Position numbers and translations under genes: made by a program. This document shows, in pieces, positions 13,215 through 32,000 of a stretch of 32,000 nt of DNA; the first letter of the stretch is position 1, and each line of letters begins with the position of its first letter. The DNA is taken from the NCBI RefSeq assembly GCF_000007985.2, contig NC_002939.5:1020001-1052000 (forward strand), written 5' to 3'. A model generated the notes under the pieces. That model ran no database searches and was not told the origin of the DNA. It saw only the letters and a list, made by a program, of their open reading frames with translations. Source of the stretch: Geobacter sulfurreducens PCA. Lineage in GTDB: Bacteria; Desulfobacterota; Desulfuromonadia; Geobacterales; Geobacteraceae.

Positions 13215-13284
13215 ATCGCTTTTGTTAATAAGTTAAATAAGTTACCAGCGTCTCGCAGTCTCCGTCATTATTCTTTCAACTTAT

Positions 13285-14073: not shown

Positions 14074-14606
14074 GGCTATGCTCCTCTATGTATCAAGGCC
14101 CAACTCTTATAAGGCCCCAGTCAGTCAATAGGCAAAATGGTGCCCAACCGATTTTGAGTCGTTTTCTTTGACGAATCTATCTCGACATCTTATCCGTTCT
14201 GACTTGATTTCCAATACTGGGTCAGGAAAGAATCCTGCACCAAACTCTTATCAAAGCTCAATTCGCTGCGGTTGTTGCTGCTACAGCGATTGCGAAGGCA
14301 TTCCTTGCGCGGCTTAGAAACTATCCCGTTCCCTCGGCCGTCCCATTCATGAAGCGTGCTCATCGCTGGTGCGAGGCACAGTTGATCCCGGTTTCCGGCG
14401 AGGGGCAGAACATTCAAAAGCTGAAAAGAATAGATTCAGTTATGTAAGGAGCGGGACAGGGCTCCAATCTCGTTAACTTGCTCCCTGAGCATCATCAAAT
14501 CGACCGGTACGTGTTCTCAGCCGCACCTCGTTGTCTTTCACGGTCGTGGTCATGCTTGCTCGTGTGGCTCCAGTTGTGCACTAAGCTGCCTCTGTCCCCT
14601 CCAGCT

Positions 14607-15653
14607 TTACGCCGTTGCCAAAAACTTTTCCCGGTCGAACGGCACATTGTTTTTCAGCATGTAGAAAATCGCTCGTGCCAGTTTGTGGGCAAGGATCGAA
14701 ATCGCTTTCCCTTTGCCATGAATCTTGACCAGTTTCTCCATCAGGATTTTTGCCTGGGGATTGTGGCGCACGAAGAACACAGCGGCCTCAGAGAAGGCCC
14801 ATTTCAAATGGACGTTGCCTATCTTGGAACCGCCGACCCCCTTTTTCTTTCCCGCTGATTCGTGGGCACATTTCACCAGCCTGCAGTAGGAAGAGAAGTC
14901 TTGCACGGTCGGGAAACGATTTATGTCATGGATCTCGTAGAGCATTACCAGGCCCAGCACCTTTCCCACGCCGTTGATTGAGCGCAGAAGTTTGAGGGCA
15001 TGCAGGTTGTGTTGCCGGGCCGTTTTTTCTATGTCCGGTTCGAGGACATTGATGACATCGTCAAAGGCGTCGATCATGGCAACGTCAATTTCGATAATTT
15101 TCCTCACTTCCGGATCGTGGAAGAGCTGAGCTACTTCATGGCGGTTCTCTTCGACTCCGAGATCAATGCCAAGAGGAGCCAGATTATATTGGGTTACCGT
15201 GTTCTGGATGTGTGCCATAAGCTCAGCACGTTTTCTGACGAAAAAGTTCCGGCGGCGCAGGAGGTCCCGTGTTGCCCGCATTTCCGGCGGGTAGACGTAG
15301 GCTAAGGGAAACATGCCGCCGCGGAGCAGCACAGCAATCTTGTGGGCGTCAATCTTGTCGCTCTTTGCTTTGCCACCGTGGACTGCCTTCATGTAAAGGG
15401 CGTGACCGAGCACAAACTCGATCTTTTCATTACGGCAAAGGTCTGCCAGCCAATACCATGCGAACATGCATTCCACGCCGACAACCAAGTCCTCCCGGTA
15501 GGGTGCCACGAGGCGAAGGAAGCTCTCAGGATTGCAGTTGATTTCGCGATGAACCAGCACGGTCCCTTCCGAGTCGAGAATGCAGACGTACTTTTTTCGG
15601 GCATGAAGATCAATTCCGCAGTAGTACTTGTGAGTCTTAGTGTAAAATCTCAT
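14607..15653 (-). CDS. IS110-family (DEDD) transposase
   Basis: 348 aa from the ATG at 15653 (MRFYTKTHKYYCGIDLHARKKYVCILD...) with an AAGGAGG SD. It has an N-terminal RuvC-like DEDD region and a C-terminal Transposase_20-like region (GVGKVLGLVMLYEIHDINRF). Confidence 0.9.
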   Translation of the reverse strand: MRFYTKTHKYYCGIDLHARKKYVCILDSEGTVLVHREINCNPESFLRLVAPYREDLVVGVECMFAWYWLADLCRNEKIEFVLGHALYMKAVHGGKAKSDKIDAHKIAVLLRGGMFPLAYVYPPEMRATRDLLRRRNFFVRKRAELMAHIQNTVTQYNLAPLGIDLGVEENRHEVAQLFHDPEVRKIIEIDVAMIDAFDDVINVLEPDIEKTARQHNLHALKLLRSINGVGKVLGLVMLYEIHDINRFPTVQDFSSYCRLVKCAHESAGKKKGVGGSKIGNVHLKWAFSEAAVFFVRHNPQAKILMEKLVKIHGKGKAISILAHKLARAIFYMLKNNVPFDREKFLATA

Positions 15654-15732
15654 GTGTAAGGCCTCCTTTGGAGAATGGGTTTCGCCAAAGTCCAGCATAC
15701 GCTAATCCGTATGCCCAGAGGGGGCCTTACAC
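15654..15732 (-). promoter_or_regulatory. Structured leader of the IS110 transposase
   Basis: On the minus-strand RNA, GTGTAAGGCCCCCT (about 15731-15718) pairs 13 of 14 with AGGAGGCCTTACAC (15667-15654), which contains the SD. This long-range stem sequesters the SD. It encloses two inner hairpins: GCATACG-N6-CGTATGC and CTTTGG-N13-CCAAAG. Confidence 0.5.
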
Positions 15733-16178: not shown

Positions 16179-18146
16179 ATGCGCCGGTATCTTTTCAGCT
16201 TCATGACCAATCTAAAGCTCCGCTGGAAGATGCTGGTACTGGTGATGCCGCTGGTGATCATTCCCATTTTCGTGGTGGGCGGGGTGATCGGCTACATCTC
16301 CACCAAGCAGGCCTACCGGGGGATCACCCAGACCTCCCGGGACGACCTGGAGCACATGGCCAGCTTCACCATCGATCTCCTCAATTCCCACTACCAGCAG
16401 TTCCAGGTCTACAAGCAGGACAAGATGCGGACCGTGCACCTGGAACTGGCCACCCTCACCAATCTTTCCTACAACCTGGTCGAGGCCCAGGACCGCCAGT
16501 ACCGGGCCGGCAAGGTGGACCTGCGCACCGCCAAGGAGGAGGCCCGCAAGGCCCTCAAGCGGGTCAGCGTCGGCATGACCGGCTATATCTACGCCATGAC
16601 CACCAAGGGGCTGCTGGAAGTCCACGTGGCGCGGGAAGGGGAGAACGTCTACGACGAGAAGGACGAGAACGGTCGCCCCTTTATCCGGATCATGTGCGAG
16701 AACGCGCTCAAGGCCAAGCCGGGGGAGGTGCTCTATATCGTCTACCCCTGGCGCAACGAGGTGCTGGGAGACAAGTATCCCCGCAAAAAGGTGGTGGCTT
16801 ACCGGTACTTCCCCCAGTGGGACTGGATCATCGCGTCGGGCGGCTATCTGGAGGAGACCTATGAGGACGTGGCCTTCGAGCGCCGCTCCTTTGCCGAGCT
16901 GAAGGAGAAGATCCGCAGCAAGAAGGTGGGGGAGACCGGCTACATCTTCTGCATGGACGATACGGGGACCTTTACCATCCACCCCTCGGGCGAGGGGCAG
17001 AATTTCCTCAATGCGGTCGACTCCAGCGGCAACAAGTTCATCAAGGAGATGGTGGAGAAGAAGCGCGGGTGGATTCGCTACCCCTGGCGCAACAAGGGAG
17101 ACGCGTCGCCGCGGATGAAGCTCGTGCGCTACGACTACTTCAAGCCTTGGGGATGGATCGTGGCGGTCGGGTCCTATGAGGACGAGTTCTACCGGGAGGC
17201 CAACAAGATCCGGGGGCGCATCGTCACCACCATGACGCTGCTGACCATCCTCACCGGCCTCGTGGCAACGGGGCTGGTTTTTCTCGCCGCCAAGGTGTTC
17301 ACCGACCCCATCAACTACATGATCGACGTGATCAGGAAGGTAAAGAAGGGGCGTCTGGACGAGCAGATGGAGGTTGACACCGGCGATGAGCTGGGCGAGC
17401 TTGCCGGCGCCTTCAACCGGATGACCACCATCATCCGCCAGAACAAGGAGATGGAGGCGAGCCTGGCTCAGCAGGGGAAGATGGCATCGCTCGGCGTCCT
17501 CTCTTCGGGCGTTGCCCATGAGATCAACAACCCCCTGGGGGTGATCCTCGGCTATGCCTCGTACCTGGAGTCGAAGATCACCGAAGAGGACCCGACCTAC
17601 AAATATATCCACGAGATCAAGCGCGAGAGCAAGCGGTGCAAGAAGATCGTCCAGGATCTCCTCTCCTACGCCCGGACCCCCAAGCCCGCCCTGGAGCCCA
17701 CCGACATCAACGACCTCCTGGGTCAGATCGTGGGGTTTGCCGCCAACCACACCGACATGCACCACGTGACCGTGGTCCGGGAGTTCGCGCCCGACTTGCC
17801 GCCGGTCATGGCCGACGGCGACCAGATCCGCCAGGTGGCCATCAACCTGATCCTCAATGCCGGCTCCGCCATGACCGCCGGCGGCGTCCTTACCGTCCGG
17901 ACGTTCCTGGACCAGGAGCAGTACGTGAACATCGTGTTCAGCGACACCGGCTGCGGCATCCCCCGCGAGGATCAGGAGCGGATATTCGAGCCGTTCTTCA
18001 CCACCAAGACCAAGGGGACCGGCCTGGGGCTCGCCATTACGCGCCAGATCGTGGAGATGCACCACGGCCGCATCGCCATCGACAGCGAGGTGGGGCGCGG
18101 CACCGACGTTACCGTGCGCCTGCCCCTGGAGCCGGAAGAGCTGTAG
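16179..18146 (+). CDS. Sensor histidine kinase with tandem Cache-type periplasmic domains, HAMP, HisKA and HATPase_c
   Basis: 655-aa ORF. Two TM segments bracket a roughly 300-aa region with a duplicated YPWRN...W(D/G)WI motif. The HAMP region is DELGELAGAFNRM, the H-box is GVAHEINNPL, and the G-boxes are DTGCGI and GTGLGLAI. Confidence 0.9.
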   Translation: MRRYLFSFMTNLKLRWKMLVLVMPLVIIPIFVVGGVIGYISTKQAYRGITQTSRDDLEHMASFTIDLLNSHYQQFQVYKQDKMRTVHLELATLTNLSYNLVEAQDRQYRAGKVDLRTAKEEARKALKRVSVGMTGYIYAMTTKGLLEVHVAREGENVYDEKDENGRPFIRIMCENALKAKPGEVLYIVYPWRNEVLGDKYPRKKVVAYRYFPQWDWIIASGGYLEETYEDVAFERRSFAELKEKIRSKKVGETGYIFCMDDTGTFTIHPSGEGQNFLNAVDSSGNKFIKEMVEKKRGWIRYPWRNKGDASPRMKLVRYDYFKPWGWIVAVGSYEDEFYREANKIRGRIVTTMTLLTILTGLVATGLVFLAAKVFTDPINYMIDVIRKVKKGRLDEQMEVDTGDELGELAGAFNRMTTIIRQNKEMEASLAQQGKMASLGVLSSGVAHEINNPLGVILGYASYLESKITEEDPTYKYIHEIKRESKRCKKIVQDLLSYARTPKPALEPTDINDLLGQIVGFAANHTDMHHVTVVREFAPDLPPVMADGDQIRQVAINLILNAGSAMTAGGVLTVRTFLDQEQYVNIVFSDTGCGIPREDQERIFEPFFTTKTKGTGLGLAITRQIVEMHHGRIAIDSEVGRGTDVTVRLPLEPEEL

Positions 18147-18165
18147 CGTTAATATCAGTTGAGAG

Positions 18166-19569
18166 GTGCCGATCGTGTCAGATAAAAAGCGCATCATGCT
18201 TATCGATAACGAAGAAGGGCTCTGCCGCATGATGGAGGCGGTGCTCGCCGACAGCGGCTATGCCGTGAAGGGGTATACCCGCTCCTTCGAGGCGGTGGAG
18301 GAGTTCAAGGCCGGCGATTGGGATCTGGTGGTGAGCGACATCAAGATGCCCGGCATGGACGGTCTTGAGGTGCTCCAGCGGATCAAGGCCAAGGATCCCC
18401 TTGTCCCGGTCATCATGATCACCGCCTACGCCACGGTGGAGACCTCGATCCAGGCGCTCCGGCGCGGGGCCTACGACATGGTCACCAAGCCCTTCGAGCC
18501 CGAGGAGCTCCTCTACCGGGTCAAGAACGCCCTCAAGCACACCCAGCTTCTGGAAGAGAACCGGGAACTGCGGGAAGAGCTGGTGGGCAAGTTCCGCTTC
18601 GACAACATCATCGGCGCATCCACCGGCCTCAAGGATGTGCTGGACAAGGTTGAGAAGATCGCTATCCGCGACACGTCGGTCCTGATCACCGGCGAGTCCG
18701 GGACCGGCAAGGAGCTCATCGCCCAGGCCATCCATTACAACTCGCTGCGCAAGGAAAAGAAGTTCGTGGCCATCAACTGCGGGGCGCTGCCCGAATCGCT
18801 GCTGGAGAGCGAGTTGTTCGGCTACCGCAAGGGGGCCTTTACCGGCGCCAAGGAGAACCGCCAGGGGCTCCTGGAGGCGGCCGACGGCGGCACGCTCTTT
18901 CTGGACGAGGCGGGCAACCTCCCCATGAACGTGCAGAAGACGCTGCTCCGCTTTCTCCAGGAACAGGAGTTTCTGCGCATCGGCGACACCACCCCCACCA
19001 AGGTCGACGTGCGGATCATCTCCGCCACCAATGCCGAGCTGAAGGAGGCGGTCAAGAGCGGTGCCTTCCGCGAGGATCTTTACTACCGGCTCAACGTGCT
19101 GAATCTTCACCTGCCCCCCCTGCGGGAGCGGCGGGCCGACATCCCGCTGCTGGCGGCCCACTTCATCACGCTGCAGAACAAGAAATTCGGCACCGCCATC
19201 AAGGGGCTCGCCCCCGACGCGTTGGAGGCGGTCATGGAGTTCTCCTGGCCGGGGAATATCCGCCAGCTCAAGAACGTGATCGAAGCCTGCACCGCCATGG
19301 AAAACGGTGATTATCTCTCGCTGGCCGTGCTTTCGCAGTTCATCGAGATATCTCACCATGTGCCCGGGGAAGAAGGGGACACGGCCGGCGATGTGGATGA
19401 GAGCGACTATTCCCAGGCCCTGTCGCGGTTCGAGGTCGACTACCTGAAGGGGCTCCTGCGCAAGAATCGCGGCAACGTGGAGGCTGCGGCCCGCGATGCG
19501 GGGATGAACATGGCCACCATCTACCGCAAGCTCAAGAAGTACAATATCCGCCGCGAAGACTACGCCTGA
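18166..19569 (+). CDS. Sigma-54-dependent response regulator (NtrC family: REC, AAA+ and Fis-type HTH)
   Basis: It has a Walker A (GESGTGKE), the GAFTGA sigma-54 contact loop and a C-terminal HTH (NVEAAARDAGMNMATIYRKLKKY). The start is uncertain: GTG at 18166, or GTG at 18175, which has better SD spacing. Confidence 0.92.
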   Translation: MPIVSDKKRIMLIDNEEGLCRMMEAVLADSGYAVKGYTRSFEAVEEFKAGDWDLVVSDIKMPGMDGLEVLQRIKAKDPLVPVIMITAYATVETSIQALRRGAYDMVTKPFEPEELLYRVKNALKHTQLLEENRELREELVGKFRFDNIIGASTGLKDVLDKVEKIAIRDTSVLITGESGTGKELIAQAIHYNSLRKEKKFVAINCGALPESLLESELFGYRKGAFTGAKENRQGLLEAADGGTLFLDEAGNLPMNVQKTLLRFLQEQEFLRIGDTTPTKVDVRIISATNAELKEAVKSGAFREDLYYRLNVLNLHLPPLRERRADIPLLAAHFITLQNKKFGTAIKGLAPDALEAVMEFSWPGNIRQLKNVIEACTAMENGDYLSLAVLSQFIEISHHVPGEEGDTAGDVDESDYSQALSRFEVDYLKGLLRKNRGNVEAAARDAGMNMATIYRKLKKYNIRREDYA

Positions 19570-19733: not shown

Positions 19734-19883
19734 GATGGGTGGTTGTCGGACCAGCCCCCTGCATGAGGCAAACCCGTGCCGTCCCCGTAGCCTCTCCGGC
19801 GCTCCCGGTACCCTCGCACGACTGCAAAAACGACGTTCTAGCCTGTTCCTCCCAAATACTCCCCATGGTTCCCGTTGTCATGG

Positions 19884-19898
19884 TTAACATGCTGAAAA
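19884..19898 (+). promoter_or_regulatory. Candidate upstream activator site, copy 2 (TTAACATGCTGAAAA), followed by an A/T-rich tract
   Basis: See copy 1. The A/T tract AATTAAAAAAACAATAAAAG (19905-19924) lies between this site and the -24/-12 element, where an IHF-type bend is often found. Confidence 0.25.
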
Positions 19899-19937
19899 TA
19901 CACAATTAAAAAAACAATAAAAGCCTATTCACGTAAT

Positions 19938-19953
19938 TGGTATACAGGTTGCT
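19938..19953 (+). promoter_or_regulatory. Sigma-54 (-24/-12) promoter TGGTATACAGGTTGCT
   Basis: The spacing TGG-N8-TTGC is exactly that of the consensus TGGCACG-N4-TTGCW. It lies 126 nt upstream of the first ORF of the operon and directly downstream of a sigma-54 activator gene. Confidence 0.6.
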
Positions 19954-20078
19954 CTAGGGATAGACAGTTACTCCTTCATTGCATGGGACAGGGTCGGGGA
20001 TGGTGACGACCAGATGATCCGACTCTCATCCCATGCGCGTCAATCGGACCGGACACGGTTTAAGAGATAGAGGTATCC

Positions 20079-20270
20079 ATGAAGGACGGAATAGTCTGCC
20101 CCTTCTACGGTAAGAGCGATGACATCTGCGATGTGGGATGCGGGTATATCTCGCCCCACGACGTCAACATGATCATCAAGTTCTGCAGCTGCCGGTACCG
20201 CGAGTGCATGAAGTACCAGGAACTGGCCGAGCGGTTTCCCCACGACATCCTCACACCCGTCAAGTGTTGA
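20079..20270 (+). CDS. Small cysteine-rich protein (63 aa, 7 Cys), uncharacterised
   Basis: The sequence is MKDGIVCPFYGKSDDICDVGCGYISPHDVNMIIKFCSCRYRECMKYQELAERFPHDILTPVKC. A GAGG SD lies 6 nt upstream. It is the first gene after the sigma-54 promoter. Confidence 0.6.
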   Translation: MKDGIVCPFYGKSDDICDVGCGYISPHDVNMIIKFCSCRYRECMKYQELAERFPHDILTPVKC

Positions 20271-20291
20271 CCATACAAGGAGGAAGACACC

Positions 20292-20414
20292 ATGCTGTAC
20301 AACATGAGCCTGCATCTTCACGGACCGTACATTCTCTATGCCCTCACATTCGTTGCAGCGTTAACGGTTATATCGTTCGTAAAGGAGAAGAGAGATGAGC
20401 GAAAAAGAGCTTGA
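20292..20414 (+). CDS. Possible 40-aa single-TM peptide (not in the supplied track)
   Basis: My own translation gives MLYNMSLHLHGPYILYALTFVAALTVISFVKEKRDERKRA. A strong AAGGAGGA SD lies 8 nt upstream. It overlaps the next ORF start by 20 nt. Confidence 0.4.
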   Translation: MLYNMSLHLHGPYILYALTFVAALTVISFVKEKRDERKRA

Positions 20415-24981: not shown

Positions 24982-27933
24982 ATGAACAGCAAACGATATC
25001 GCTCAGACACGCGACCGGCCGCATGCGCCATCCGCTTGCTTGCCGTGCTGGTTCTGCTGGCCGGTCTGGCGGCCCGGGCCGAAGCCGGGCCGGCCCTTCC
25101 GGTCATGGTCAAGGATATCAACACCGCATCGGTACCCGTCTCGTCCAGCCCCTCCGGCATGACGGCCAATGGCGGCATCCTCTTCTTCAGTGCCGGCGAC
25201 GGCGCCAACGGCCCGGAACTCTGGAAGAGCGACGGTTCCGCGGAAGGGACGGTGCTCGTCAAAGATATCAATGCCGGGCCCGGGCCGGGCACGCCTCAGA
25301 ATTTCTCCGTCATGAACGGGATCACCTATTTTTCCGCCATGGACAGCTTCCGCGGCGTGGAACTCTGGAAAAGCGACGGCACGGCTGCTGGGACGGTCAT
25401 TGTTAAGGATATCTACCAGGGGGGCGAATCATCCAACCCCCTGGAGTTGACAGTGGCAGGGAACACGCTTTTCTTTTCCGCCGATCATCCCGTCTATGGC
25501 AAGGAACTCTGGAAGAGCGACGGCACCGCCGAGGGAACCGTTCTCGTGGCCGATATCGCTGCGGAGGCGAGTTCGACGCCCCAGTGGCTGAGGGCGGTCA
25601 ACGGTACGCTCTTCTTCGCAGCCGACGACGGTCTCCATGGCCGGGAGCTCTGGAAGAGCGACGGGACGCCGGAAGGCACGGTGATGGTCAAGGATATCAA
25701 CCCCTTCGGCGGGTCCGATCCGGGCGAGATGGCGGTGTCCGGCGGCATCCTCTACTTTACCGCCGATGACGGTGAAAATGGCCATGAGCTCTGGAGGAGC
25801 GACGGCACCGCCGAAGGGACGTATCTGGTCGCCGATATAGCCCCCGGCGAAGAGAGTTCCTACCCCTTCGAGCCGGTGGGCATCAATGGCCTGCTCTATT
25901 TTACGGCCAATGACGGCTACACCGGGTACGAACTCTGGCAGAGCGACGGCACCCCCGAGGGGACGACGCTGGTGAAGGATATCAATCCGGACGGCGAAGA
26001 CTCAATGCCCTGGGGCATAGTGGGCATGGACAGGTACGTCTACTTCGCGGCCGATGACGGCGTCAACGGGTATGAACTCTGGCGCACCGACGGCACCATG
26101 GGGGGGACGGAGATGGTTGCCGACATCCAGCCCGGGATGGGCGGTTCCATGTACAGCTCTCCCCGGCTGGTGAACGGCATGCTCCTCTTTGCCGCCGACG
26201 ACGGAGAGCACGGCATCGAGATATGGAAAAGCGACGGCACTGCCGAGGGCACCCTCATGGTCAGGGATATCATCCCGGACGCCATGTCGTGGCCATCCGA
26301 GCTCATGGTGCATAACGGTACACTCTACTTCGCAGCCGACGACGGCGTAAACGGCACGGAGCTCTGGAAGAGCGACGGAACGGCCGAGGGCACGGTGCTG
26401 GTGCGGAACATTGCACCCGAGACGGCCAGCAGTCTTCCCTACCAACTGGCCGTGATGGGGACCACGGTATTCTTTGCCGCGGCCGATACCGATCTTGACT
26501 TTGATGTCTGGAAGAGCGACGGTACTGCTGATGGTACGGTGCTCGTCAAGGAGATCAATCCCGAAGGGTGGGCCTATCTGGACCGGTTGATGGTCGTTGG
26601 TGATACCCTTTACTTCCTGGCCGAGGACAACTATGGAGAGGCCAGCCATGGCATCGAACTCTGGAAGAGCGACGGCACCGCCGAAGGCACCAGGATGATC
26701 AAGGACATCAACCCCGGGCCCCAGGGGATATTCTTTCCCGGCAACCCCAATTATCCCTTCTCCATGGCCGCCGTCGGCACTACGGTGTATTTCCCCGGTT
26801 TTACCGCGGGCAATGGTCATGAACTCTGGAAGAGCGATGGTACCGCCGAAGGGACGGTCCTCGTGAAGGATATCAATCCCGTTTTCGATTTCTCCTCATT
26901 TCCCGACAGTTTTACCGCCATGAACGGAGCGGTCTATTTCGTGGCCGATGACGGTACGCATGGCGCCGAGCTCTGGAAGAGCGACGGTACCGCCGACGGC
27001 ACCCGGATGGTCAGGGATATCTATCCGGACGGCATCGGCTCCAGTCCCTTGTCGCTCACGGTCATGAACAACGTCCTCTACTTTAGTGCCGCCGGTGACG
27101 AAGGTGGCTACGGACTCTGGAAGAGCGACGGTACCGCCGAGGGGACCACGTTCGTAAAGGACACCTCTCCCTTCAATCACTCGCTTCTCCCTGCCTACCT
27201 GACCCCCGTAAATGGAACTCTCTTCTTCGCCGCCCACGACGAAAACGCCGGATTCGAGCTCTGGAAGAGCGACGGGACCACCGACGGCACCGTGCTGGTG
27301 GCCGATATCCTGCCGGGGGAAGGGGCGTCCAATCTGCGCTTGCTTACCGGCGTGAACGGTACCCTGTTTTTCGTGGCCGACGATGGAGTGCACGGCGAGG
27401 AGCTCTGGAAAAGCGACGGGACGCCCGAGGGAACGGTGATGGTGAAGGACATTTTTCCGGGGGATGGGATATCTGGCATCACCTGGATCAAGGTGATGAA
27501 CGGGATGCTCTATTTTGCGGCCGACGACGGAGTGAACGGCCTCGAACTCTGGCAGAGCGACGGAACCGCCGAGGGGACGGTGCTGGTCACGAACATCGTG
27601 GCGGGCCAGGGGAGTTCGTCTCCCTCGTATCCGGTGGTGGCGGGCAATACACTCTACTTTGCCGCTACTGACGGAGGCAGCGGCGTCGAGCTCTGGAAGT
27701 TTTCGCCCGATCCGCCCGATGGTGATCTGACCGGCAACGAGACACTGGAGATCCCCGATGTGCTGCGCGCTCTGCGGATTGCGGCCGGCATCGCGGCTCC
27801 CACCGTGGCCGACTTCATCCACGGCGATGTGGCCCCCCTTGACGGAAACGGCCGCCCCGCCCCGGACGGCGTGATAGATATGAACGACGTGCTGGTTGTC
27901 TTACGCAAGATGCTGGGCGTCGTGTCGTGGTGA
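24982..27933 (+). CDS. Secreted ELWxxDGT-repeat protein (about 17 repeats) with a C-terminal dockerin-like module
   Basis: 983-aa ORF with a signal peptide ending ARAEA. I count 17 copies of (E/D)LW(K/R/Q)(S/T)DGT..GT..V.DI at roughly 50-aa spacing. The C-terminus has two Ca-loop-like segments, GDLTGNETLEIPD and GDVAPLDGNGRPAPDGVIDMNDV. Confidence 0.9.
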   Translation: MNSKRYRSDTRPAACAIRLLAVLVLLAGLAARAEAGPALPVMVKDINTASVPVSSSPSGMTANGGILFFSAGDGANGPELWKSDGSAEGTVLVKDINAGPGPGTPQNFSVMNGITYFSAMDSFRGVELWKSDGTAAGTVIVKDIYQGGESSNPLELTVAGNTLFFSADHPVYGKELWKSDGTAEGTVLVADIAAEASSTPQWLRAVNGTLFFAADDGLHGRELWKSDGTPEGTVMVKDINPFGGSDPGEMAVSGGILYFTADDGENGHELWRSDGTAEGTYLVADIAPGEESSYPFEPVGINGLLYFTANDGYTGYELWQSDGTPEGTTLVKDINPDGEDSMPWGIVGMDRYVYFAADDGVNGYELWRTDGTMGGTEMVADIQPGMGGSMYSSPRLVNGMLLFAADDGEHGIEIWKSDGTAEGTLMVRDIIPDAMSWPSELMVHNGTLYFAADDGVNGTELWKSDGTAEGTVLVRNIAPETASSLPYQLAVMGTTVFFAAADTDLDFDVWKSDGTADGTVLVKEINPEGWAYLDRLMVVGDTLYFLAEDNYGEASHGIELWKSDGTAEGTRMIKDINPGPQGIFFPGNPNYPFSMAAVGTTVYFPGFTAGNGHELWKSDGTAEGTVLVKDINPVFDFSSFPDSFTAMNGAVYFVADDGTHGAELWKSDGTADGTRMVRDIYPDGIGSSPLSLTVMNNVLYFSAAGDEGGYGLWKSDGTAEGTTFVKDTSPFNHSLLPAYLTPVNGTLFFAAHDENAGFELWKSDGTTDGTVLVADILPGEGASNLRLLTGVNGTLFFVADDGVHGEELWKSDGTPEGTVMVKDIFPGDGISGITWIKVMNGMLYFAADDGVNGLELWQSDGTAEGTVLVTNIVAGQGSSSPSYPVVAGNTLYFAATDGGSGVELWKFSPDPPDGDLTGNETLEIPDVLRALRIAAGIAAPTVADFIHGDVAPLDGNGRPAPDGVIDMNDVLVVLRKMLGVVSW
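25190..27700 (+). repeat. Intragenic array of roughly 150-bp degenerate repeats (core GAACTCTGGAAGAGCGACGG)
   Basis: This is the DNA-level reflection of the ELWxxDGT protein repeats. The core recurs nearly identically many times. Confidence 0.85.
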
Positions 27934-27972
27934 CGGGAAGATAATCGGCAGTCCCGCGGCAACGGCAGCTTC

Positions 27973-28016
27973 GCTGCGCTCGGCGGTCACTCAACCGTTG
28001 AGCGCAGCTTTTTTTT
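27973..28016 (+). terminator. Rho-independent terminator of the ELWxxDGT gene, overlapping the 3' end of the convergent GGQ gene
   Basis: GCTGCGCTC-N18-GAGCGCAGC followed by TTTTTTTT. On the opposite strand the T-run encodes the KKK of the convergent ORF. Confidence 0.55.
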
Positions 28017-28310
28017 CATCCCTACCAGCTTCTTCTCCGTCAGTCGCTTTTCCCTGGCGCCTCTGGGCACCGTGGTGGCGATCCGCTTTTTCGCCTTACG
28101 TTCACGCTTTTCCAGCGCAATCCGCAGACGCTCCATGGCCTTCTCGCGATTCTGCGCCTGAGAGCGGCTTTCGCTGGCCTGGACCACGATTCCGGTGGGA
28201 AGGTGGCGGATGCGCACCGCCGAATCGGTGGTATTACGGTGCTGCCCGCCGGGTCCTGAAGCACGATAGTACTCCACCTTGATATCCGCGTCCCTGATGT
28301 CCACCGTCAT
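27987..28310 (-). CDS. Small RF-1-domain (GGQ) protein, ArfB/peptidyl-tRNA-hydrolase-like (107 aa)
   Basis: I chose the ATG at 28310 for its GGAGG SD. The sequence contains [29 protein letters not shown] with the GGQ motif, followed by a Lys/Arg-rich C-terminal tail. Confidence 0.8.
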
Positions 28311-28563
28311 CGCAGCATCCCTCCTTTGATTCCGGTTGCCAGGGTAGCATGAAACGCGCAAGCTTTGCCACCGGTTGCAACCACCCGGCCTGCCTAAAAA
28401 AAATGGTTAAGAGACTTGTGCGTGAGCGATGTTTTATGTATCTTTACTAAGTAACCGATATCGTTACCCCGGGGCACGGACGCCCCGGGTGCCGGTTCCG
28501 GCGCCGGGGAGCGGTTTCCCGGACGCTACAATCGATACTGCTCTGAACATGCATGTCTGAGCG

Positions 28564-30810
28564 ATGACGGGGTCTGGTATGCCAGGGACGGCACAGCTGC
28601 ACCGGAATAAGCCCGCCGTCGGCGCCTATGCCGACGGTCCGGAGTATATCCAGGACGAACTCCGGTGGCTCGATCTCCTCATCCGTTACCGGCTCGACGG
28701 CCGGAACAGGGGCGGAGCCGATCCCTTCGGGCAGTTGCGGGGGCTCGTCCTCTCGGACGACGAGATCAACGGTCTGCTTTCGGGCGATGCCGGAGGAACT
28801 CCCGGAGCTTCGCCTGAGTGTGGCGCCGAACTGGCCGAGCTGGCGGCCGAAGTTGCGGACCGCCGCTCTGCCACACTCCGAATGGGGACAGCCCTCCCCC
28901 TTGCCGATCTTTCCCGCACGTTTCACCTATCTCCCTTTGAGGAGAAGTGCCTCCTCATCTGCCTTGCCCCCGAACTGGACCCGAAGTACGAAAAGCTCTA
29001 TGCCTATCTCCATGATGACGTAACGCGCCGACGGCCCAGCATCGGGCTGATCCTCGACCTCCTCTGCACCTCCTTCCGGGAGCGGGTGGCTGCCCGCACC
29101 GTCTTCGATCCCCGGGCTCCGCTGACCAAGTACCGTCTCGTACAGTTCATTCAAGCCACCCCGGACGGCCCTGTTTCTTTCCCCTCGCGCCAACTCATGC
29201 TCAATGGCCGGATTGCCGGTTACGTGCTGGGGCACGCCCAGCCGGACCCGCACCTGGCCGAAGCGGTCCGCCTGGTCCTGCCCGGCCCCGGCGGCACGGT
29301 ATCGCCGGTCGAAGATCGTAACCGGGAACGGGCACGGCAGCTGGTCCGTGCCCACCTTGCGGTGCACGCTTCGGGGGAGAGCCGACTGGTGCTGTTCTGC
29401 CGTGGCCCCCGGGGAGCGGGGAAGCGGGAACTGGTCGAGAGCCTGTGCCGCGACCTCGGCCTGTGGCTCCTGGTGGCCGATGTGGAGCGGATGCTGGCCG
29501 GAAGCCTTCCCTTCGGGGAAATGGCGTGGCTGCTTGGCCGCGAGGCCGCTCTTCAGCCGGCCGTCGTCTGTCTGGAGGGGATGGATGCGCTCCTGGCGGG
29601 GGACAATGACCATACCTCGGAACTCACGTCGCTCATGGACGCTATCCGGACCTTCTGCCGGGTCACGTTTGTCTGTTCCGGCCGCCCCTGGCGCCCCCGT
29701 GACCGGCATCCCTCCGACGTGTTCATTGAACTGGATTTTCCCCTTCCGGACGAAGGCACGCGGAAACGCCTGTGGGAGGATGGCTTGAGCGGAAGCCCCC
29801 TTGCGGCCGGCATGGGCGCGGCAGATGTCCTGGCCGGCACGTTCCGCTTCACCCCCGGCCAGATCCGCCAGGCACTGGCCGATGCCCGCGATTTGGCCGT
29901 CTGGCACGGAGGGGACGAGGCGAGCGGGGGGAGCGAAGCCGATCTGCTTCATGCCGCCTGCCGCGCCCGATCCCACACCCGCTTGGGCACACTGGCGCGG
30001 CGGCTCGAGCCCGTTCACACCCTGGACGACATCGTCCTCCCGGCCCTCCAGATGGCCCAGTTGCGGGAGATCTGCGCCCAGGTCCGCTACCGGCACCTGG
30101 TTTTCGGCCAGTGGGGATTCGACCGGAAGCTCTCCTCGGGCAAGGGGCTTACGGTTCTCTTTACGGGGCCTCCCGGCACGGGCAAGACCATGGCCGCCGC
30201 GGTGATTGCCCGCGAACTGGGGTTGGAGCTCTACCGGATCGATCTCTCCCAGGTGGTGAGCAAGTACATCGGCGAGACGGAGAAAAACCTGGAGCGCATC
30301 TTCGCCGAGGCGGAGACCGCCGGCGCCATCCTGTTCTTCGACGAGGCCGACGCCCTGTTCGGCAGGCGTTCCGAGGTGAAGGACGCCCACGACCGTTATG
30401 CGAATATTGAAATCGGCTACCTGCTCCAGCGGATGGAGGAGTACAGCGGCATCTCCATTCTGGCCACGAATCTCCGCCAGAACCTGGACGAGGCCTTCAC
30501 CCGCCGCATCCGGATCGTGGTGGAGTTCCCCTTTCCCGACGAGGAATACCGGGAAATGATCTGGCAGCGCATCTTCCCGCCGGAACTTCCCGTGGGGGAC
30601 GATGTGGACCTGGGATTCCTGGCCCGCCGGTTCAGAATCTCCGGGGGGGATATCAGGAACGTGGCCCTGGGCGCGGTCTTTTTCGCGGCCGAGGAGGGGC
30701 GGCCCCTGGCCATGGCGCACCTGGTCCGCGCCCTGGGCAGGGAGTTGCGCAAGACGGGAAAACCGTGCACCAGGGAGGAGTTCGGAGACTATCTGGAGAT
30801 GCTGGCGTGA
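28564..30810 (+). CDS. AAA+ ATPase with a long N-terminal extension (Afp15/Pvc15-like eCIS ATPase)
   Basis: 748-aa ORF. Walker A is GPPGTGKTMAA and Walker B is ILFFDEADALF, with a second-region-of-homology-like ATNLRQNLDEAFTRR. A DUF4255 gene follows immediately. The start is uncertain (28564 or 28579). Confidence 0.85.
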   Translation: MTGSGMPGTAQLHRNKPAVGAYADGPEYIQDELRWLDLLIRYRLDGRNRGGADPFGQLRGLVLSDDEINGLLSGDAGGTPGASPECGAELAELAAEVADRRSATLRMGTALPLADLSRTFHLSPFEEKCLLICLAPELDPKYEKLYAYLHDDVTRRRPSIGLILDLLCTSFRERVAARTVFDPRAPLTKYRLVQFIQATPDGPVSFPSRQLMLNGRIAGYVLGHAQPDPHLAEAVRLVLPGPGGTVSPVEDRNRERARQLVRAHLAVHASGESRLVLFCRGPRGAGKRELVESLCRDLGLWLLVADVERMLAGSLPFGEMAWLLGREAALQPAVVCLEGMDALLAGDNDHTSELTSLMDAIRTFCRVTFVCSGRPWRPRDRHPSDVFIELDFPLPDEGTRKRLWEDGLSGSPLAAGMGAADVLAGTFRFTPGQIRQALADARDLAVWHGGDEASGGSEADLLHAACRARSHTRLGTLARRLEPVHTLDDIVLPALQMAQLREICAQVRYRHLVFGQWGFDRKLSSGKGLTVLFTGPPGTGKTMAAAVIARELGLELYRIDLSQVVSKYIGETEKNLERIFAEAETAGAILFFDEADALFGRRSEVKDAHDRYANIEIGYLLQRMEEYSGISILATNLRQNLDEAFTRRIRIVVEFPFPDEEYREMIWQRIFPPELPVGDDVDLGFLARRFRISGGDIRNVALGAVFFAAEEGRPLAMAHLVRALGRELRKTGKPCTREEFGDYLEMLA

Positions 30811-30823
30811 CAGGGATGGAGCC

Positions 30824-31420
30824 ATGAGCGACTACACGGTGATTGCCGATATCGGGGCCACGCTGATCGGCCTGCTGCGGGAGAGCATGGGCGACCTGCT
30901 GTCCGCCGACGCCATCGCGCTTCTCTCTCCGGCGGAGCTGGAAGGGCAGGACATCCGCCTGACCCTCTTCCTCTATGCCGTGAGCGAGAATCCGCACCTG
31001 AAGAACGCCCCGGCCCCGCCGGCTTCGCCGGGTATCCGCCGGGCCCCGCCGCTCCACCTGGACCTTTCCTACCTGCTCACGGCCCACGGCTCACGGCTCA
31101 TCACCGACCGGACCGAACGCTCCTTGGAGGAGCACCGGATCCTGGGGCGGGCCATGCGGGTACTCTACGATAACTCACTGCTGACGGGATCGGTCCTGAA
31201 GGGCGGTCTGGCCGGATCCACGGCCCAGTTCCGGGTGAATCTCCAACCCCTTGCCCTGGACGACCTGTCCAAGATATGGACTGCTCTGCCCAACAACGCC
31301 CTCAAGGCATCGGCAGGGTACCAGGTGACCCCGGTGGCCATTGATTCCACCCGGTCCACCGGCGGGAAACCCGTGGTGGAGAGGACCCTGGAGTACTACC
31401 AGAAAGGGGCCGGGTTATGA
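30824..31420 (+). CDS. DUF4255 / Pvc16-N-like protein (contractile injection system cap/terminator family)
   Basis: 198 aa from the ATG at 30824. The segments DIRLTLFLYAVSENPHLKN and PLHLDLSYLLTAHG match the conserved pattern of the Pvc16_N family as I recall it. Confidence 0.8.
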   Translation: MSDYTVIADIGATLIGLLRESMGDLLSADAIALLSPAELEGQDIRLTLFLYAVSENPHLKNAPAPPASPGIRRAPPLHLDLSYLLTAHGSRLITDRTERSLEEHRILGRAMRVLYDNSLLTGSVLKGGLAGSTAQFRVNLQPLALDDLSKIWTALPNNALKASAGYQVTPVAIDSTRSTGGKPVVERTLEYYQKGAGL

Positions 31421-32000
31421 CCGAGGCAGTGATGCTCCAGCCGCCCGACCGGTCCGTGAGCCGCCTTTCCTTCGCGATGCGGCTGGTGGATGACTTCGCG
31501 CCGGAGCGGGAGCCTCCGGCCGGGGTAGCGGTGACGCTCACGGGAGGCGGGACCCAGGGCATTCGCAACCCCGGCGGGTGGCACCTCTTCATGGATCTGC
31601 CGCCGGGAACGTACCGGGTGAGTGCCCGGTCAGAGCTCTACCTGGCGGAGGAGAAGGAGATCGACACCGCGCTGCTGGATCCCGGCCTGCCGGTGGTGGA
31701 GCTGCTGCTTAAGCCGTCCGCTGCCTACCCGTTTCCACCCGGAACCACGCTGGTCCGTGGCGTGGTGAGGAACGAAGCGGGGCAGGACGTGCCGGATGCC
31801 CGGGTGGAGGCGGTTCCCTGGATGCCGGTGCCATCGGTGAAGGGGCGGGTGCGGCAGGGTGGCGCCCAGGCGGGCCAGCCGACCATCCGCCTTGAGCACC
31901 TGTCGGGAGGACTGGCCGCGGGCGACATGCTGCTGGTCAGGGATGGAGACCCCTCCCGCCAGGAGATCGTCCGGATCGCGGCGCCGCTGCCGTCCAACGC
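31417..32000 (+). CDS. Hypothetical protein, partial (open to the window end), possibly with a carboxypeptidase-regulatory-like fold; next gene of the eCIS-like operon
   Basis: The ATGA start/stop overlaps the DUF4255 gene. My translation (MTEAVMLQPPDRSVSRLSFAMRLVDDF...GTYRVSARSELYLAEEKEI...) has no stop through 32000. It is absent from the supplied track because it has no in-window stop. Confidence 0.6.
   Translation, partial: MTEAVMLQPPDRSVSRLSFAMRLVDDFAPEREPPAGVAVTLTGGGTQGIRNPGGWHLFMDLPPGTYRVSARSELYLAEEKEIDTALLDPGLPVVELLLKPSAAYPFPPGTTLVRGVVRNEAGQDVPDARVEAVPWMPVPSVKGRVRQGGAQAGQPTIRLEHLSGGLAAGDMLLVRDGDPSRQEIVRIAAPLPSN

What the first reader, a model, noticed from the sequence alone, without database searches (positions are those of the whole stretch)
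28564..32000. 5' boundary of an extracellular contractile injection system (eCIS / phage-tail-like) locus
An AAA+ ATPase with a long N-terminal extension is followed 13 nt later by a DUF4255/Pvc16-N-like protein. An ATGA-coupled ORF then runs off the window.

This gene pair corresponds to Afp15/Pvc15 and Afp16/Pvc16 of Afp/PVC-type particles and their relatives. In many genomes the sheath, tube, baseplate and effector genes follow.

The structural genes and cargo would lie beyond position 32000. eCIS in Geobacter-like delta-proteobacteria are barely characterised, and their payloads are usually novel.
Basis: partly seen in the sequence, partly recalled or inferred. Interest (0 to 1): 0.7.

Follow-up and report, generated by a model that had tools for sequence, protein, structure and literature searches.

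The report
Start of Geobacter's phage-tail injection operon
The three genes at the end of this window are the first genes of a phage-tail-like contractile injection system of Geobacter sulfurreducens; the reading is correct, but the locus is already listed in a published catalogue, so it is not a discovery.

Summary
The window carries an Afp15-type AAA+ ATPase at 28564/28579-30810, made of a winged-helix N-domain, a degenerate D1 and a catalytic D2. A 13-nt gap follows. Next comes a 198-aa Pvc16_N/DUF4255 cap protein (Pfam E 5.7e-44). An ATGA-overlapped ORF then runs off the window.

The window is 100% identical to a G. sulfurreducens MAG contig and 98% identical to strain KN400. On that same contig the next genes are sheath, two gp19 tubes, CIS_tube/Afp7, a split spike (gpD and gp5), PAAR, gp25 and the start of a Baseplate_J (Afp11) gene. 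In a 96.5-99% identical relative the cluster continues with two full Afp11 genes, a Tail_P2_I+NHL protein and a fibre-like protein.

It is not new. Geller et al. 2021 list this locus in strain PCA (GSU0968-GSU0992) with GSU0972 as afp15 and GSU0973 as afp16. The gp25 protein (GSU0986) has a crystal structure, 2IA7.

Three points add something:
- The features indicate lineage II (IIa or IIc). The closest solved sheath is the membrane-bound, T6SS-like haloarchaeal CIS, so an extracellular mode is unproven.
- Geobacter papers report the cluster as induced in ΔGSU1771 and ΔcsrA biofilms but do not call it a CIS.
- Recombination junctions lie inside the ATPase gene.

The parts
28305..28578 (+). Intergenic promoter and leader region between the divergent ArfB-like gene and the ATPase gene
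   Evidence: The consensus scans found no sigma-70 or sigma-54 site. Comparison with the diverged relatives L001 and L008 shows conserved blocks: an A-run near 28401, CTTGT...TGTA.C.TTA, GGGGCACGGACGC, and the ACGGGG-N-TGGTATG start context. GC is 56%, against 66% in the operon. The promoter assignment is an inference.
28579..30810 (+). Afp15/Pvc15-type AAA+ ATPase, orthologue of GSU0972.
   Evidence: PF22977 WHD and PF00004 AAA. D1 is degenerate and D2 canonical, the same layout described for Pvc15. Annotated afp15 in Geller 2021. Start-codon conservation is shown.
28603..29262 (+). Winged-helix N-domain of the ATPase (aa 14-233, numbered from 28564)
   Evidence: PF22977, E 3.9e-60. It lies in the strain-variable part of the gene (dS about 0.59, dN/dS 0.28 against L001).
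29323..29658 (+). Core of the degenerate first AAA module, D1 (aa 254-365)
   Evidence: Weak AAA_16 match below the cutoff. The Walker A-like motif GPRGAGKR has R in place of S/T. The Walker B position reads VVCLEG, with no D/E pair.
30154..30531 (+). Catalytic second AAA module, D2 (aa 531-656). Walker A GPPGTGKT is at 30166-30189 and Walker B ILFFDE(AD) at 30328-30345.
   Evidence: PF00004, E 2.7e-31. Motifs are shown. The best PDB matches are the D1/D2 rings of p97/VCP/Cdc48.
30824..31420 (+). Tube/sheath terminator (cap) protein, 198 aa, orthologue of GSU0973. It has only the Pvc16_N domain.
   Evidence: PF14065, E 5.7e-44. A profile hits Afp16 residues 3-173 of 295 and the PVC DUF4255 protein residues 10-178 of 300, so the C-terminal domain of Afp16/Pvc16 is absent. 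The protein is 43-46% identical to orthologues in Methanosarcinales loci.
31417..32000 (+). First 194 codons of a lineage-specific 282-aa protein, orthologue of GSU0974. It has an N-terminal transthyretin-like beta-sandwich. Its role is unknown.
   Evidence: CarboxypepD_reg match just below the cutoff. Only residues about 10-100 of the AF2 model are confident. They superpose on transthyretin-like domains of carboxypeptidases and on no CIS chain. The gene sits between cap and sheath in Methanolobus and Methanomethylovorans loci at 32-34% identity, where it is about 199 aa.

Best explanation
Window 28579-32000 is the 5' end of the single phage-tail-like contractile injection system (CIS) operon of Geobacter sulfurreducens. 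It is orthologous to GSU0972-GSU0974 of the GSU0972-GSU0992 cluster. The system belongs to the Afp/PVC superfamily, lineage II (subtype IIa or IIc).

**Gene 1** is an Afp15-type type II AAA+ protein. A winged-helix N-domain and a catalytically dead D1 ring would hold the hexamer and its clients. The D2 ring, with an intact Walker A and a DEAD-type Walker B, hydrolyses ATP. By analogy with Pvc15 and Afp15 it acts in the producer cell as an unfoldase or chaperone that helps particle assembly and/or loads cargo. It is not part of the fired particle.

**Gene 2** is the cap. A hexamer of the Pvc16_N domain binds the distal end of tube and sheath, stops polymerisation and locks the extended sheath.

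**Gene 3** is a conserved lineage-specific beta-sandwich protein of unknown role.

The three genes are translationally coupled (13-nt gap, ATGA overlap). They are followed by sheath, tube, tape-measure-like, baseplate, spike/PAAR and fibre-like genes. Contraction of the sheath drives the spike-tipped tube into a target membrane.

**Shown here:** domain content, motifs, gene order, presence of all core parts, orthology to the PCA locus, and conservation of the order in archaea and other bacteria.

**Inferred:** the biochemical roles, which are taken from Afp, PVC and other CIS; that particles are made at all; and what they target.
For: - Domains and motifs.
- Pvc15 has the same layout of N-domain, deviant D1 and active D2 with a DEAD motif (PMC11495950).
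- The window is identical to L002 and 98-99.5% identical to G. sulfurreducens chromosomes.
- Downstream genes on the same contig: sheath, 2x gp19, DUF6760, CIS_tube, gpD-like, Phage_base_V, PAAR, gp25 and the start of Afp11.
- In a 96.5-99% identical relative: two Baseplate_J proteins, Tail_P2_I+NHL and a fibre-like HHH_5 protein.
- The gp25 protein matches PDB 2IA7 with E 9e-85.
- The sheath hits CIS sheaths (H. borinquense 9EZM, E 4.6e-155; Streptomyces 8BKY; Pvc2; Afp2/3; tCIS; AlgoCIS) far better than phage T4 gp18 or pyocin sheath.
- The published catalogue gives the same assignments (PMC8213781 supplements).
- The order ATPase-cap-X-sheath...Afp11a-Afp11b-P2_I-fibre is conserved in Methanosarcinales, Bacillota and Deferribacteres loci.
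- GSU0972-0992 behave as one transcriptional block, induced about 4-10 fold in ΔGSU1771 and ΔcsrA biofilms (PMC10599522 and PMC11934962).
Against: - No particle has been seen and no target or cargo is known for any Geobacter CIS. No paper reporting one turned up in the searches.
- No toxin-like domain was found in the 21 genes I could read.
- The last two genes of the PCA cluster, glycosyltransferase GSU0991 and the 981-aa GSU0992, could not be fetched in full.
- The role of the ATPase is by analogy only. Even for Pvc15 the need for ATP hydrolysis is debated.
- The cap lacks the C-terminal domain of Afp16/Pvc16.
Confidence: 0.93

Rival explanations
1. The machine is the same, but it does not work as a released (extracellular) particle. 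It fires while attached to the producer's cytoplasmic membrane, like a T6SS, or from inside the cell, as in the characterised lineage II relatives. Under this reading the catalogue label 'eCIS' is wrong about mode of action.
For: - The closest solved sheath by a wide margin is Cis2 of Halogeometricum borinquense (9EZM, E 4.6e-155). That CIS is bound to the cytoplasmic membrane and kills by contact (PMC11566945).
- The next closest are the Streptomyces sheaths 8BKY and 8BL4. From my own knowledge these belong to the cytoplasmic Streptomyces CIS; the review PMC10598620 calls that system 'cytosolic'.
- The thylakoid-anchored tCIS is also related. Its sheath and gp25 match, and its anchoring to membranes in situ is stated in PMC11566945.
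- The well-established extracellular systems Afp and PVC (lineage Ia) and AlgoCIS match the sheath much less well; subtype.
- The cluster is induced in dense biofilms, where contact-dependent action makes sense.
Against: - No protein with a predicted transmembrane helix is encoded from the ATPase through the fibre-like gene. The haloarchaeal T6SS mode correlates with a 6-TM anchor next to the cluster.
- G. sulfurreducens is diderm, so a cell-bound system would also need to cross the outer membrane. No trans-envelope complex genes are present.
- It already has canonical T6SS genes elsewhere.
- A Tail_P2_I+NHL propeller and a fibre-like protein with a variable C-terminus fit target binding by a free particle. 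Homologous Cis12/13 are, however, also proposed as membrane contacts in haloarchaea.
Confidence: 0.33
2. It is a decaying prophage tail module or an R-type tailocin (a bacteriocin that kills by depolarisation without cargo), not an Afp/PVC-type system.
For: - The genes are phage-derived: gp19, gp25, Baseplate_J, Tail_P2_I and GPD.
- PCA annotations call them 'phage tail' proteins.
- The cluster has higher GC than its surroundings (66% against 59% for the window), and earlier work flagged it as laterally acquired.
Against: - It has the two components that separate eCIS from pyocins and T6SS: the Afp15-type ATPase and the Afp16/DUF4255 cap (criteria in PMC6899500).
- No capsid, terminase, portal, integrase, holin or endolysin gene lies within the roughly 20 kb read on either side.
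- All ORFs are intact and syntenic across strains and phyla.
- The locus is absent from the IMG/VR viral collection.
- Its sheath scores far better against CIS sheaths than against pyocin or T4 sheaths.
Confidence: 0.03
3. The AAA+ ATPase is an independent enzyme, for example an IteA-like anti-phage ATPase or a generic Cdc48-like unfoldase, that merely sits next to the tail genes.
For: The best NCBIfam hit is IteA_antiphage (E 1.3e-31). The PDB hits are p97/Cdc48.
Against: - The IteA score is 110 bits against a curated cutoff of 510, and it covers only the generic D2 module.
- The gene is separated by 13 nt from the cap gene.
- It is co-regulated with the whole cluster.
- The ATPase-cap-X-sheath order recurs in Methanolobus and Methanomethylovorans loci.
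Confidence: 0.02

Closest known systems
The G. sulfurreducens PCA cluster GSU0972-GSU0992 (eCIStem operon 65544 in Geller et al. 2021, PMC8213781)
   Same: It is the same locus in another strain. The window is 98-99.5% identical to complete G. sulfurreducens chromosomes. Flanks, order and sizes match gene for gene: GSU0969 S41 peptidase, GSU0970, GSU0971 RF-1 domain, GSU0972 afp15, GSU0973 afp16/DUF4255, GSU0974, GSU0975 sheath, and so on.
   Different: Only strain-level differences. Some related lineages carry a strongly diverged allele of the ATPase N-domain and D1 together with the upstream region.
Afp (Serratia entomophila) and PVC (Photorhabdus), eCIS lineage Ia
   Same: - All eight core components are present.
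- The ATPase has the Pvc15 layout of N-domain, deviant D1 and active D2 with DEAD.
- The cap shares the Pvc16_N domain with Afp16 and the PVC cap.
   Different: - The gene order is inverted: here the ATPase and cap open the operon, whereas afp15/16 are numbered near the end of the afp series.
- There is one sheath gene rather than three.
- The spike is split into gpD-like and gp5-like ORFs.
- There are two Afp11 genes.
- The cap lacks the C-terminal domain (198 against 295-300 aa).
- No Afp13-like adenovirus-type fibre, no recognisable Afp14 and no Afp17/18-type toxin genes were seen.
Haloarchaeal T6SS-like CIS of Halogeometricum borinquense (PMC11566945; sheath 9EZM)
   Same: It has the closest solved sheath (E 4.6e-155), two cis11 genes, and Cis12/13-type peripheral baseplate proteins.
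   Different: That system is bound to the cytoplasmic membrane and is associated with a 6-TM anchor gene and toxin-immunity pairs. No TM protein or toxin-immunity pair was found in the readable part of the Geobacter cluster. The host envelope is diderm, not an S-layer archaeon.
Streptomyces CIS (sheaths 8BKY and 8BL4; baseplate 9GTP) and the cyanobacterial thylakoid-anchored tCIS (7B5H)
   Same: - Lineage II relatives. The Streptomyces sheaths match with E 2.4e-124 and 1.4e-121, and its gp25 with E 1.7e-34. The tCIS sheath matches with E 2.6e-51 and its gp25 with E 1.8e-25.
- The small conserved protein GSU0977 falls in one cluster with cyanobacterial eCIS genes in Geller's clustering.
   Different: Both act inside the producer. 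The review PMC10598620 calls the Streptomyces system cytosolic, and tCIS is described as thylakoid-anchored and as anchoring itself to membranes in situ. Nothing is known for Geobacter.
Methanosarcinales, Bacillota and Nitrospirota CIS clusters of the same lineage (e.g. Methanomethylovorans hollandica Metho_1612-1628 in Sarris et al. 2014)
   Same: - Identical gene order from ATPase to the fibre-like gene.
- Sheath C-terminal part 64-83% identical, tube about 63%, 120-aa protein 62-70%, gp25 56-65%, cap 41-47%.
- gp25 relatives at 79-83% identity include a Nitrospirota MAG.
   Different: - The Afp11a N-terminus is only about 30% identical.
- The region between the second tube gene and Afp7 varies from about 1 to 5 kb.
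- The X protein is about 199 aa rather than 282 aa.
- PAAR is absent from several archaeal loci.
- All of these clusters are uncharacterised.

Membership tests
eCIS / Afp-PVC superfamily (core set of Chen et al. 2019) | Afp15-like AAA+ ATPase in the cluster | tested here: met
   PF22977 and PF00004, with degenerate D1 and active D2. It is the first gene of the operon.
eCIS / Afp-PVC superfamily (core set of Chen et al. 2019) | Afp16-like terminator or cap (DUF4255/Pvc16_N) | tested here: met
   PF14065, E 5.7e-44. A profile hit to Afp16 6RAP has E 1.9e-5.
eCIS / Afp-PVC superfamily (core set of Chen et al. 2019) | Sheath (Afp2/3/4) and tube (Afp1/5) | tested here: met
   On the identical contig L002: Phage_sheath_1 and _1C in a 660-aa protein, and two Phage_T4_gp19 proteins with E 2.9e-48 and 1.1e-45.
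eCIS / Afp-PVC superfamily (core set of Chen et al. 2019) | Baseplate core: Afp7, Afp8 (spike), Afp9 (gp25), Afp11 (Baseplate_J) | tested here: met
   CIS_tube E 1.2e-31, a gpD-like protein below the Pfam cutoff, Phage_base_V, PAAR and GPW_gp25. gp25 matches 2IA7. Baseplate_J occurs twice in the 96.5-99% identical L045. No LysM domain was detected in the Afp7 homologue.
eCIS / Afp-PVC superfamily | Not a prophage, T6SS i-iii or R-pyocin: no head or lysis genes and no TssJLM membrane complex in the cluster | tested here: met
   Gene content about 20 kb upstream and about 20 kb downstream shows none. There was no IMG/VR match.
eCIS in the strict sense (extracellular, released particle) | Particles are released from the producer and act cell-free | not testable with these tools
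   This needs EM or cryo-ET and supernatant assays. The closest characterised relatives are cell-bound.
eCIS in the strict sense | Associated cargo or toxin gene(s) | tested here: inconclusive
   No toxin domain was found in the genes read. GSU0991 (glycosyltransferase) and GSU0992 (981 aa, no Pfam in Geller's table) were not retrievable in full.
eCIS lineage II, subtype IIa or IIc (Chen et al. 2019) | afp8 split into gp27-like and gp5-like ORFs; PAAR present; two afp11 copies; archaeal members | tested here: met
   A 362-aa gpD-like ORF and a 218-aa Phage_base_V ORF, a 98-aa PAAR protein, and Baseplate_J proteins of 1119 and 677 aa. IIa and IIc were not separated because no Afp11 reference tree was available.
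Afp16/Pvc16 full-length architecture | N-terminal Pvc16_N domain plus a C-terminal domain (about 295-300 aa) | tested here: not met
   The protein is 198 aa and aligns only to residues 3-173 of Afp16 and 10-178 of the PVC cap. It is a member of the domain family, not of the two-domain architecture.
IteA anti-phage ATPase (NCBIfam NF042959) | Score at or above the curated cutoff of 510 bits | tested here: not met
   110 bits, covering the D2 module only.

The most novel reading that the evidence does not exclude
The G. sulfurreducens CIS may not be a free 'eCIS'. It may instead be a biofilm-induced, contact-dependent or intracellular device like its nearest characterised relatives. It may shape electroactive biofilms or interactions with syntrophic partners. 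Two facts make this open: the same lineage is common in Methanosarcinales, and the cluster is switched on in the thick, highly conductive biofilms of ΔGSU1771 and ΔcsrA mutants. A further possibility is that the strain-variable N-domain and D1 of the ATPase set client or cargo specificity, while the structural cassette is exchanged nearly unchanged between lineages.
Probability: 0.2. Interest if true: 0.65.

Novelty: already known. Interest (0 to 1): 0.27.

Why it matters
As a discovery it matters little. The locus sits in a model organism sequenced in 2003, it is listed in a public eCIS catalogue, and one of its proteins was crystallised by structural genomics.

Its practical value is as a link between two literatures. 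Geobacter transcriptome papers report GSU0972-0992 as 'hypothetical, laterally acquired', and RT-qPCR tables class GSU0972 under 'transport'. These genes are among the most consistently induced in hyper-electroactive biofilm mutants. Those papers do not say that the cluster encodes a complete contractile injection machine.

G. sulfurreducens is genetically tractable, and inducing backgrounds already exist. It would therefore be a convenient bacterial model for lineage II CIS. No diderm member turned up in the literature searches, and the mode of action (free, membrane-bound or intracellular) differs from case to case.

Tried and rejected
**Walking downstream**
- Scans of genome contigs and metagenome contigs with the Afp11 N-terminus returned only distant loci at 27-39% identity and never G. 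sulfurreducens itself.
- A homologue search with the same fragment returned nothing.
- The viral-contig scan found nothing.
- The walk succeeded only through the gp25 homologue P0006. It stops inside the glycosyltransferase gene, so GSU0992 was not read.

**Promoter**
- No sigma-70 consensus site lies in 27900-28700. No sigma-54 site with up to 2 mismatches lies in the intergenic region, and window-wide matches are below the chance expectation.
- This holds even though a sigma-54 two-component system lies 9 kb upstream and GSU0470/0471 are co-induced in the literature.

**CsrA-site idea**
- An 8-bp hairpin at 28468-28489 presents ACGGAC in its loop. The loop sequence is invariant in diverged relatives.
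- The fold of the leader is no better than shuffles (z -1.16), and the hairpin is not in the MFE structure of the diverged relative.
- The idea is kept only as a weak lead.

**Third ORF**
- Single-sequence and profile PDB searches gave only generic beta-sandwich hits.
- AF2 with a 6-sequence alignment gave mean pLDDT 49.7, with only residues about 10-100 confident.
- Foldseek returned transthyretin-like domains and no CIS chain. No function was assigned.

**PDB single-sequence searches**
- The cap and the 120-aa protein gave no hits.

**Catalogue check**
- The Chen et al. 2019 supplements were not held, so membership in dbeCIS could not be checked directly.

**Methanosarcina link**
- I considered a specific Geobacter-Methanosarcina transfer and rejected it. 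The scan patterns bias the sample.
- The closest gp25 relatives outside Geobacter (79-83% identity) are unnamed metagenome sequences plus one Nitrospirota MAG; relatives named at about 65-67% include Methanobacterium, Methanoperedens and Thermodesulfobacteriota.

Full report
**1. What is in the window**

The ORF listing and translation show three co-oriented ORFs at the 3' end of the window.
- The first is 28564-30810 (748 aa).
- The second is 30824-31420 (198 aa).
- The third starts at 31417 and runs off the window.

- TGA at 30808-30810 is followed by 13 nt containing GGAG, then ATG at 30824.
- An ATGA overlap lies at 31417-31420.

Pfam results:
- ORF1 matches PF22977 (winged-helix variant, aa 14-233, E 3.9e-60) and PF00004 AAA (aa 531-656, E 2.7e-31).
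- ORF2 matches PF14065 Pvc16_N (E 5.7e-44).
- ORF3 has a CarboxypepD_reg-like match below the cutoff.

Motif inspection of the ATPase:
- The first P-loop module is degenerate. It reads GPRGAGKR, and VVCLEG replaces the hhhhDE box.
- The second is canonical: GPPGTGKT and ILFFDEAD.
- Pvc15 is described with the same arrangement of N-domain, deviant D1 and active D2 with a DEAD box (PMC11495950).

One correction concerns the start codon.
- The ATG at 28564 is absent in diverged relatives. The ATG at 28579 and its upstream ACGGGG are invariant.
- Annotations use the 743-aa form.
- The true start is therefore probably 28579.

**2. Where the window comes from and what lies beyond it**

An exact-protein look-up of ORF2 found it on G. 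sulfurreducens chromosomes, including KN400 (CP002031), and on many metagenome contigs.
- The window is 100% identical over its last 11.2 kb to DPAK01000012.1 (L002).
- It is 99.5% and 99.3% identical to two other chromosome-sized NCBI records carrying the same locus, and 98.0% identical to KN400.

On L002 the third ORF is 282 aa. The genes that follow it are:
- a 660-aa sheath (Phage_sheath_1 and _1C)
- a gp19 tube
- a conserved 120-aa protein
- a 59-aa DUF6760 protein
- a second gp19 tube
- a 396-aa Ala/Arg/Gly-rich protein
- a CIS_tube (Afp7-like) protein
- a 362-aa gpD-like hub (below the Pfam cutoff)
- a 218-aa Phage_base_V spike
- a 98-aa PAAR protein
- a 133-aa gp25
- the start of a 1119-aa protein

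Through the gp25 homologue P0006 I reached L045, a relative 96.5-99% identical to L002. There the cluster continues as follows:
- The 1119-aa protein and a 677-aa protein both carry Baseplate_J.
- A 665-aa protein combines NHL repeats with Tail_P2_I.
- A 627-aa protein has an HhH C-terminus and PT-rich repeats.
- A glycosyltransferase follows in L044.

The gp25 protein matches PDB 2IA7, the structural-genomics structure of GSU0986, with E 9e-85 (PMC3352280).

All eight core components that Chen et al. 2019 use to define eCIS loci are present.

**3. Boundary**

Upstream of the ATPase the window carries:
- a divergently oriented ArfB-like RF-1-domain gene at 27987-28304 (-)
- an ELWxxDGT-repeat secreted protein
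- an S41 peptidase
- a Flg_new_2 protein

None of these is tail-related.

In strain PCA the co-regulated block begins at GSU0972. The ATPase is therefore the 5' boundary.

Consensus scans found no sigma-70 or sigma-54 site in the 274-nt intergenic region. Conserved blocks are visible by comparison with diverged relatives.

**4. It is already catalogued**

The supplements of Geller et al. 2021 list operon 65544 as G. sulfurreducens PCA NC_002939 1041859-1074108, covering GSU0968-GSU0992. The assignments are:
- GSU0972: afp15
- GSU0973: afp16 (DUF4255)
- GSU0975: afp2/3/4
- GSU0976 and GSU0979: afp1/5
- GSU0981: afp7
- GSU0982 and GSU0983: afp8
- GSU0985: afp10
- GSU0986: afp9
- GSU0987 and GSU0988: afp11
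- GSU0989: Tail_P2_I
- GSU0990: HHH_5
- GSU0991: glycosyltransferase
- GSU0992: no domain

The same paper finds the genus Geobacter enriched for eCIS, with 10 of 24 genomes and q about 2e-9.

The claim that Geobacter eCIS are barely characterised is true experimentally. The locus itself is known.

**5. Lineage and closest characterised relatives**

The following features match subtype IIa or IIc of Chen et al.:
- a split spike (gpD-like and gp5-like ORFs)
- the presence of PAAR
- two Afp11 genes
- archaeal relatives

The gene order ATPase-cap-X-sheath-tube-120aa-DUF6760-tube-[variable]-Afp7-gpD-spike-(PAAR)-gp25-Afp11a-Afp11b-P2_I-fibre N-terminus recurs in Methanolobus, Methanomethylovorans, Methanosarcina, Bacillota and Deferribacteres loci.
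- Sheath C-terminal parts are 64-83% identical and the cap is 41-47% identical.
- The gp25 search shows that the nearest non-Geobacter relatives (79-83% identity) are unnamed metagenome sequences plus one Nitrospirota MAG; relatives named at about 65-67% include Methanobacterium, Methanoperedens and Thermodesulfobacteriota.
- I therefore do not claim a specific link to Methanosarcina.

Against solved structures the sheath ranks as follows:
- H. borinquense Cis2 (9EZM): E 4.6e-155
- the Streptomyces CIS sheaths: E 2.4e-124 and 1.4e-121
- Pvc2 and a second PVC sheath: E 1.7e-55
- Afp3: E 1.1e-51
- tCIS: E 2.6e-51
- Afp2: E 9.7e-49
- AlgoCIS: E 3e-47
- T4 and pyocin sheaths: about 1e-11 to 1e-13

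The haloarchaeal system is bound to the cytoplasmic membrane and acts like a T6SS. The review PMC10598620 calls the Streptomyces system cytosolic. The tCIS is thylakoid-anchored.

The label 'extracellular' is therefore an assumption here.

Against a cell-bound mode, no protein from the ATPase to the fibre-like gene has a predicted TM helix. The haloarchaeal T6SS mode correlates with a 6-TM anchor.

I put about one chance in three on a non-extracellular mode.

**6. The parts inside the finding**

- The cap protein corresponds only to the N-terminal domain of Afp16 and Pvc16. The profile alignment covers residues 3-173 of 295 and 10-178 of 300.
- The third ORF is conserved in position and in its first 120 or so residues in archaeal relatives, where it is about 199 aa.
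- Its confident AF2 region is a transthyretin-like beta-sandwich with no match to any solved CIS chain. Its role is open. A cap- or sheath-associated decoration is only a guess from position.
- The 396-aa protein between the second tube gene and Afp7 is poorly conserved apart from its N-terminus, which is 43% identical over 82 aa in L050.
- It occupies a slot whose length varies from about 1 to 5 kb among relatives. This fits a tape-measure-like role, which is an inference.

**7. Expression evidence from the literature**

- GSU0972-GSU0992 are jointly up-regulated (log2 about 2-3.8) in ΔGSU1771 and ΔcsrA biofilms, on glass and on electrodes.
- RT-qPCR confirms this for gsu0972 (PMC10599522 and PMC11934962).
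- gsu0972 is down in ΔfliW (PMC13407953).
- Those papers describe the genes as hypothetical and laterally acquired, and class GSU0972 under 'transport'.
- A GGA-loop hairpin in the leader could be a CsrA site, but folding and conservation do not support it.

**8. Mosaic structure**

I compared the window genome (L002) with a second lineage, L001 and L008.
- Mismatch density is 19-34 per 100 nt up to window position about 30000, which is ATPase codon about 480 at the D1-D2 linker.
- In L001 it then falls to 5-7 per 100 nt up to about 30700 and to essentially zero from the cap gene onward.
- In L008 it falls to near zero directly at about 30000.

The dS and dN/dS values fall into three strata:

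| Region | dS | dN/dS |
|---|---|---|
| ATPase N-domain | 0.59 | 0.28 |
| ATPase D1 and linker | 0.60 | 0.22 |
| ELWxxDGT-repeat gene | 0.57 | 0.17 |
| ATPase D2 | 0.17 | 0.04 |
| S41 peptidase | 0.17 | 0.11 |
| Sheath | 0.002 | not defined |

The structural cassette therefore appears to have been exchanged very recently between lineages. The promoter, N-domain and D1 form an old, divergent allele. This was not followed further.

**9. Verdict**

The finding is a correct recognition of a known, catalogued but experimentally untouched CIS operon. Interest is modest, at 0.27.

The open and possibly interesting question is the mode of action and biological role of a lineage II CIS in a diderm, biofilm-forming electroactive bacterium.

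Noticed in passing
window ~27000-30700 (3' part of the ELWxxDGT-repeat gene, ArfB-like gene, intergenic region, ATPase codons 1 to about 480) compared with 30824-32000 and onward: Mosaic divergence against a second Geobacter lineage (L001, L008). The upstream region and the ATPase N-domain and D1 are 67-82% identical at nucleotide level (dS about 0.6). ATPase D2 sits at the level of the flanking S41 peptidase gene, the only flanking comparator measured (dS 0.17). Everything from the cap gene onward is 99.6-100% identical (sheath dS 0.002). Recombination junctions lie at about 30000 and about 30700, inside the ATPase gene.
   Followed up: partly
window 8759-10484 (+): A group II intron. Rfam D1-D4 matches lie at 8759-8927 (132 bits) and 8972-9030. 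They are followed by a 446-aa RVT_1+GIIM reverse transcriptase/maturase ORF at 9144-10484.
   Followed up: no
window 7074-8054 (-), 11003-15698: A cluster of mobile elements in a low-GC stretch (47.6% GC, against 59% for the window). It includes an IS200-like Y1 transposase fused to a DnaA_C-type HTH (7074-8054), a DUF4372+DDE_Tnp_1 transposase (11688-12806) and an IS110-family transposase (14607-15698). Unannotated ORFs lie between them.
   Followed up: no
window 24982-27933 (+): A 983-aa secreted protein with 18 ELWxxDGT repeats (TIGR04534, 1110 bits) and an N-terminal hydrophobic signal-like segment. By eye the C-terminus looks dockerin-like. It lies directly upstream of the CIS operon and is part of the hyper-divergent tract between lineages (83.7% nt identity).
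   Followed up: no
window 27987-28304 (-) and hairpin 27973-28008: A short RF-1-domain protein that resembles ArfB or PrfH but scores below their cutoffs. It is divergent from the ATPase gene. A 15-bp GC-rich hairpin with a T-run lies between it and the convergent upstream gene and looks like a bidirectional terminator.
   Followed up: no
window 16179-19569 (+): A double-Cache/HAMP histidine kinase and a sigma-54-dependent response regulator lie about 9 kb upstream of the CIS operon. No sigma-54 promoter motif was found in front of the ATPase gene.
   Followed up: partly
L002 12153-12360 and 12414-12621 (sheath gene; about 33.0-33.4 kb in window-equivalent coordinates, beyond the window): The sheath gene contains an internal 208-nt direct repeat at 80% identity. 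This suggests a duplicated insertion domain in the N-terminal, non-Pfam part of the 660-aa sheath.
   Followed up: no
window 28468-28489: A perfect 8-bp GC hairpin (CCCGGGGC/GCCCCGGG) presents ACGGAC in its loop, within the ATPase leader. The loop and the flanking GGGGCACGGACGC are invariant in relatives whose surrounding sequence is about 70% identical. It could be a CsrA or other regulator site, but the folding statistics do not support it.
   Followed up: partly
L044 and L045, about 19860-20402: The distal end of the cluster differs between close relatives. In L044 the glycosyltransferase gene overlaps the fibre-like gene. In L045 the next called gene starts 390 nt later, and the sequence contains ambiguous bases.
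   Followed up: no
literature (strain PCA): G. sulfurreducens carries canonical T6SS genes (GSU0428-0433, GSU3165-3174) as well as this CIS. Chen et al. 2019 report that genomes with both are rare.
   Followed up: no
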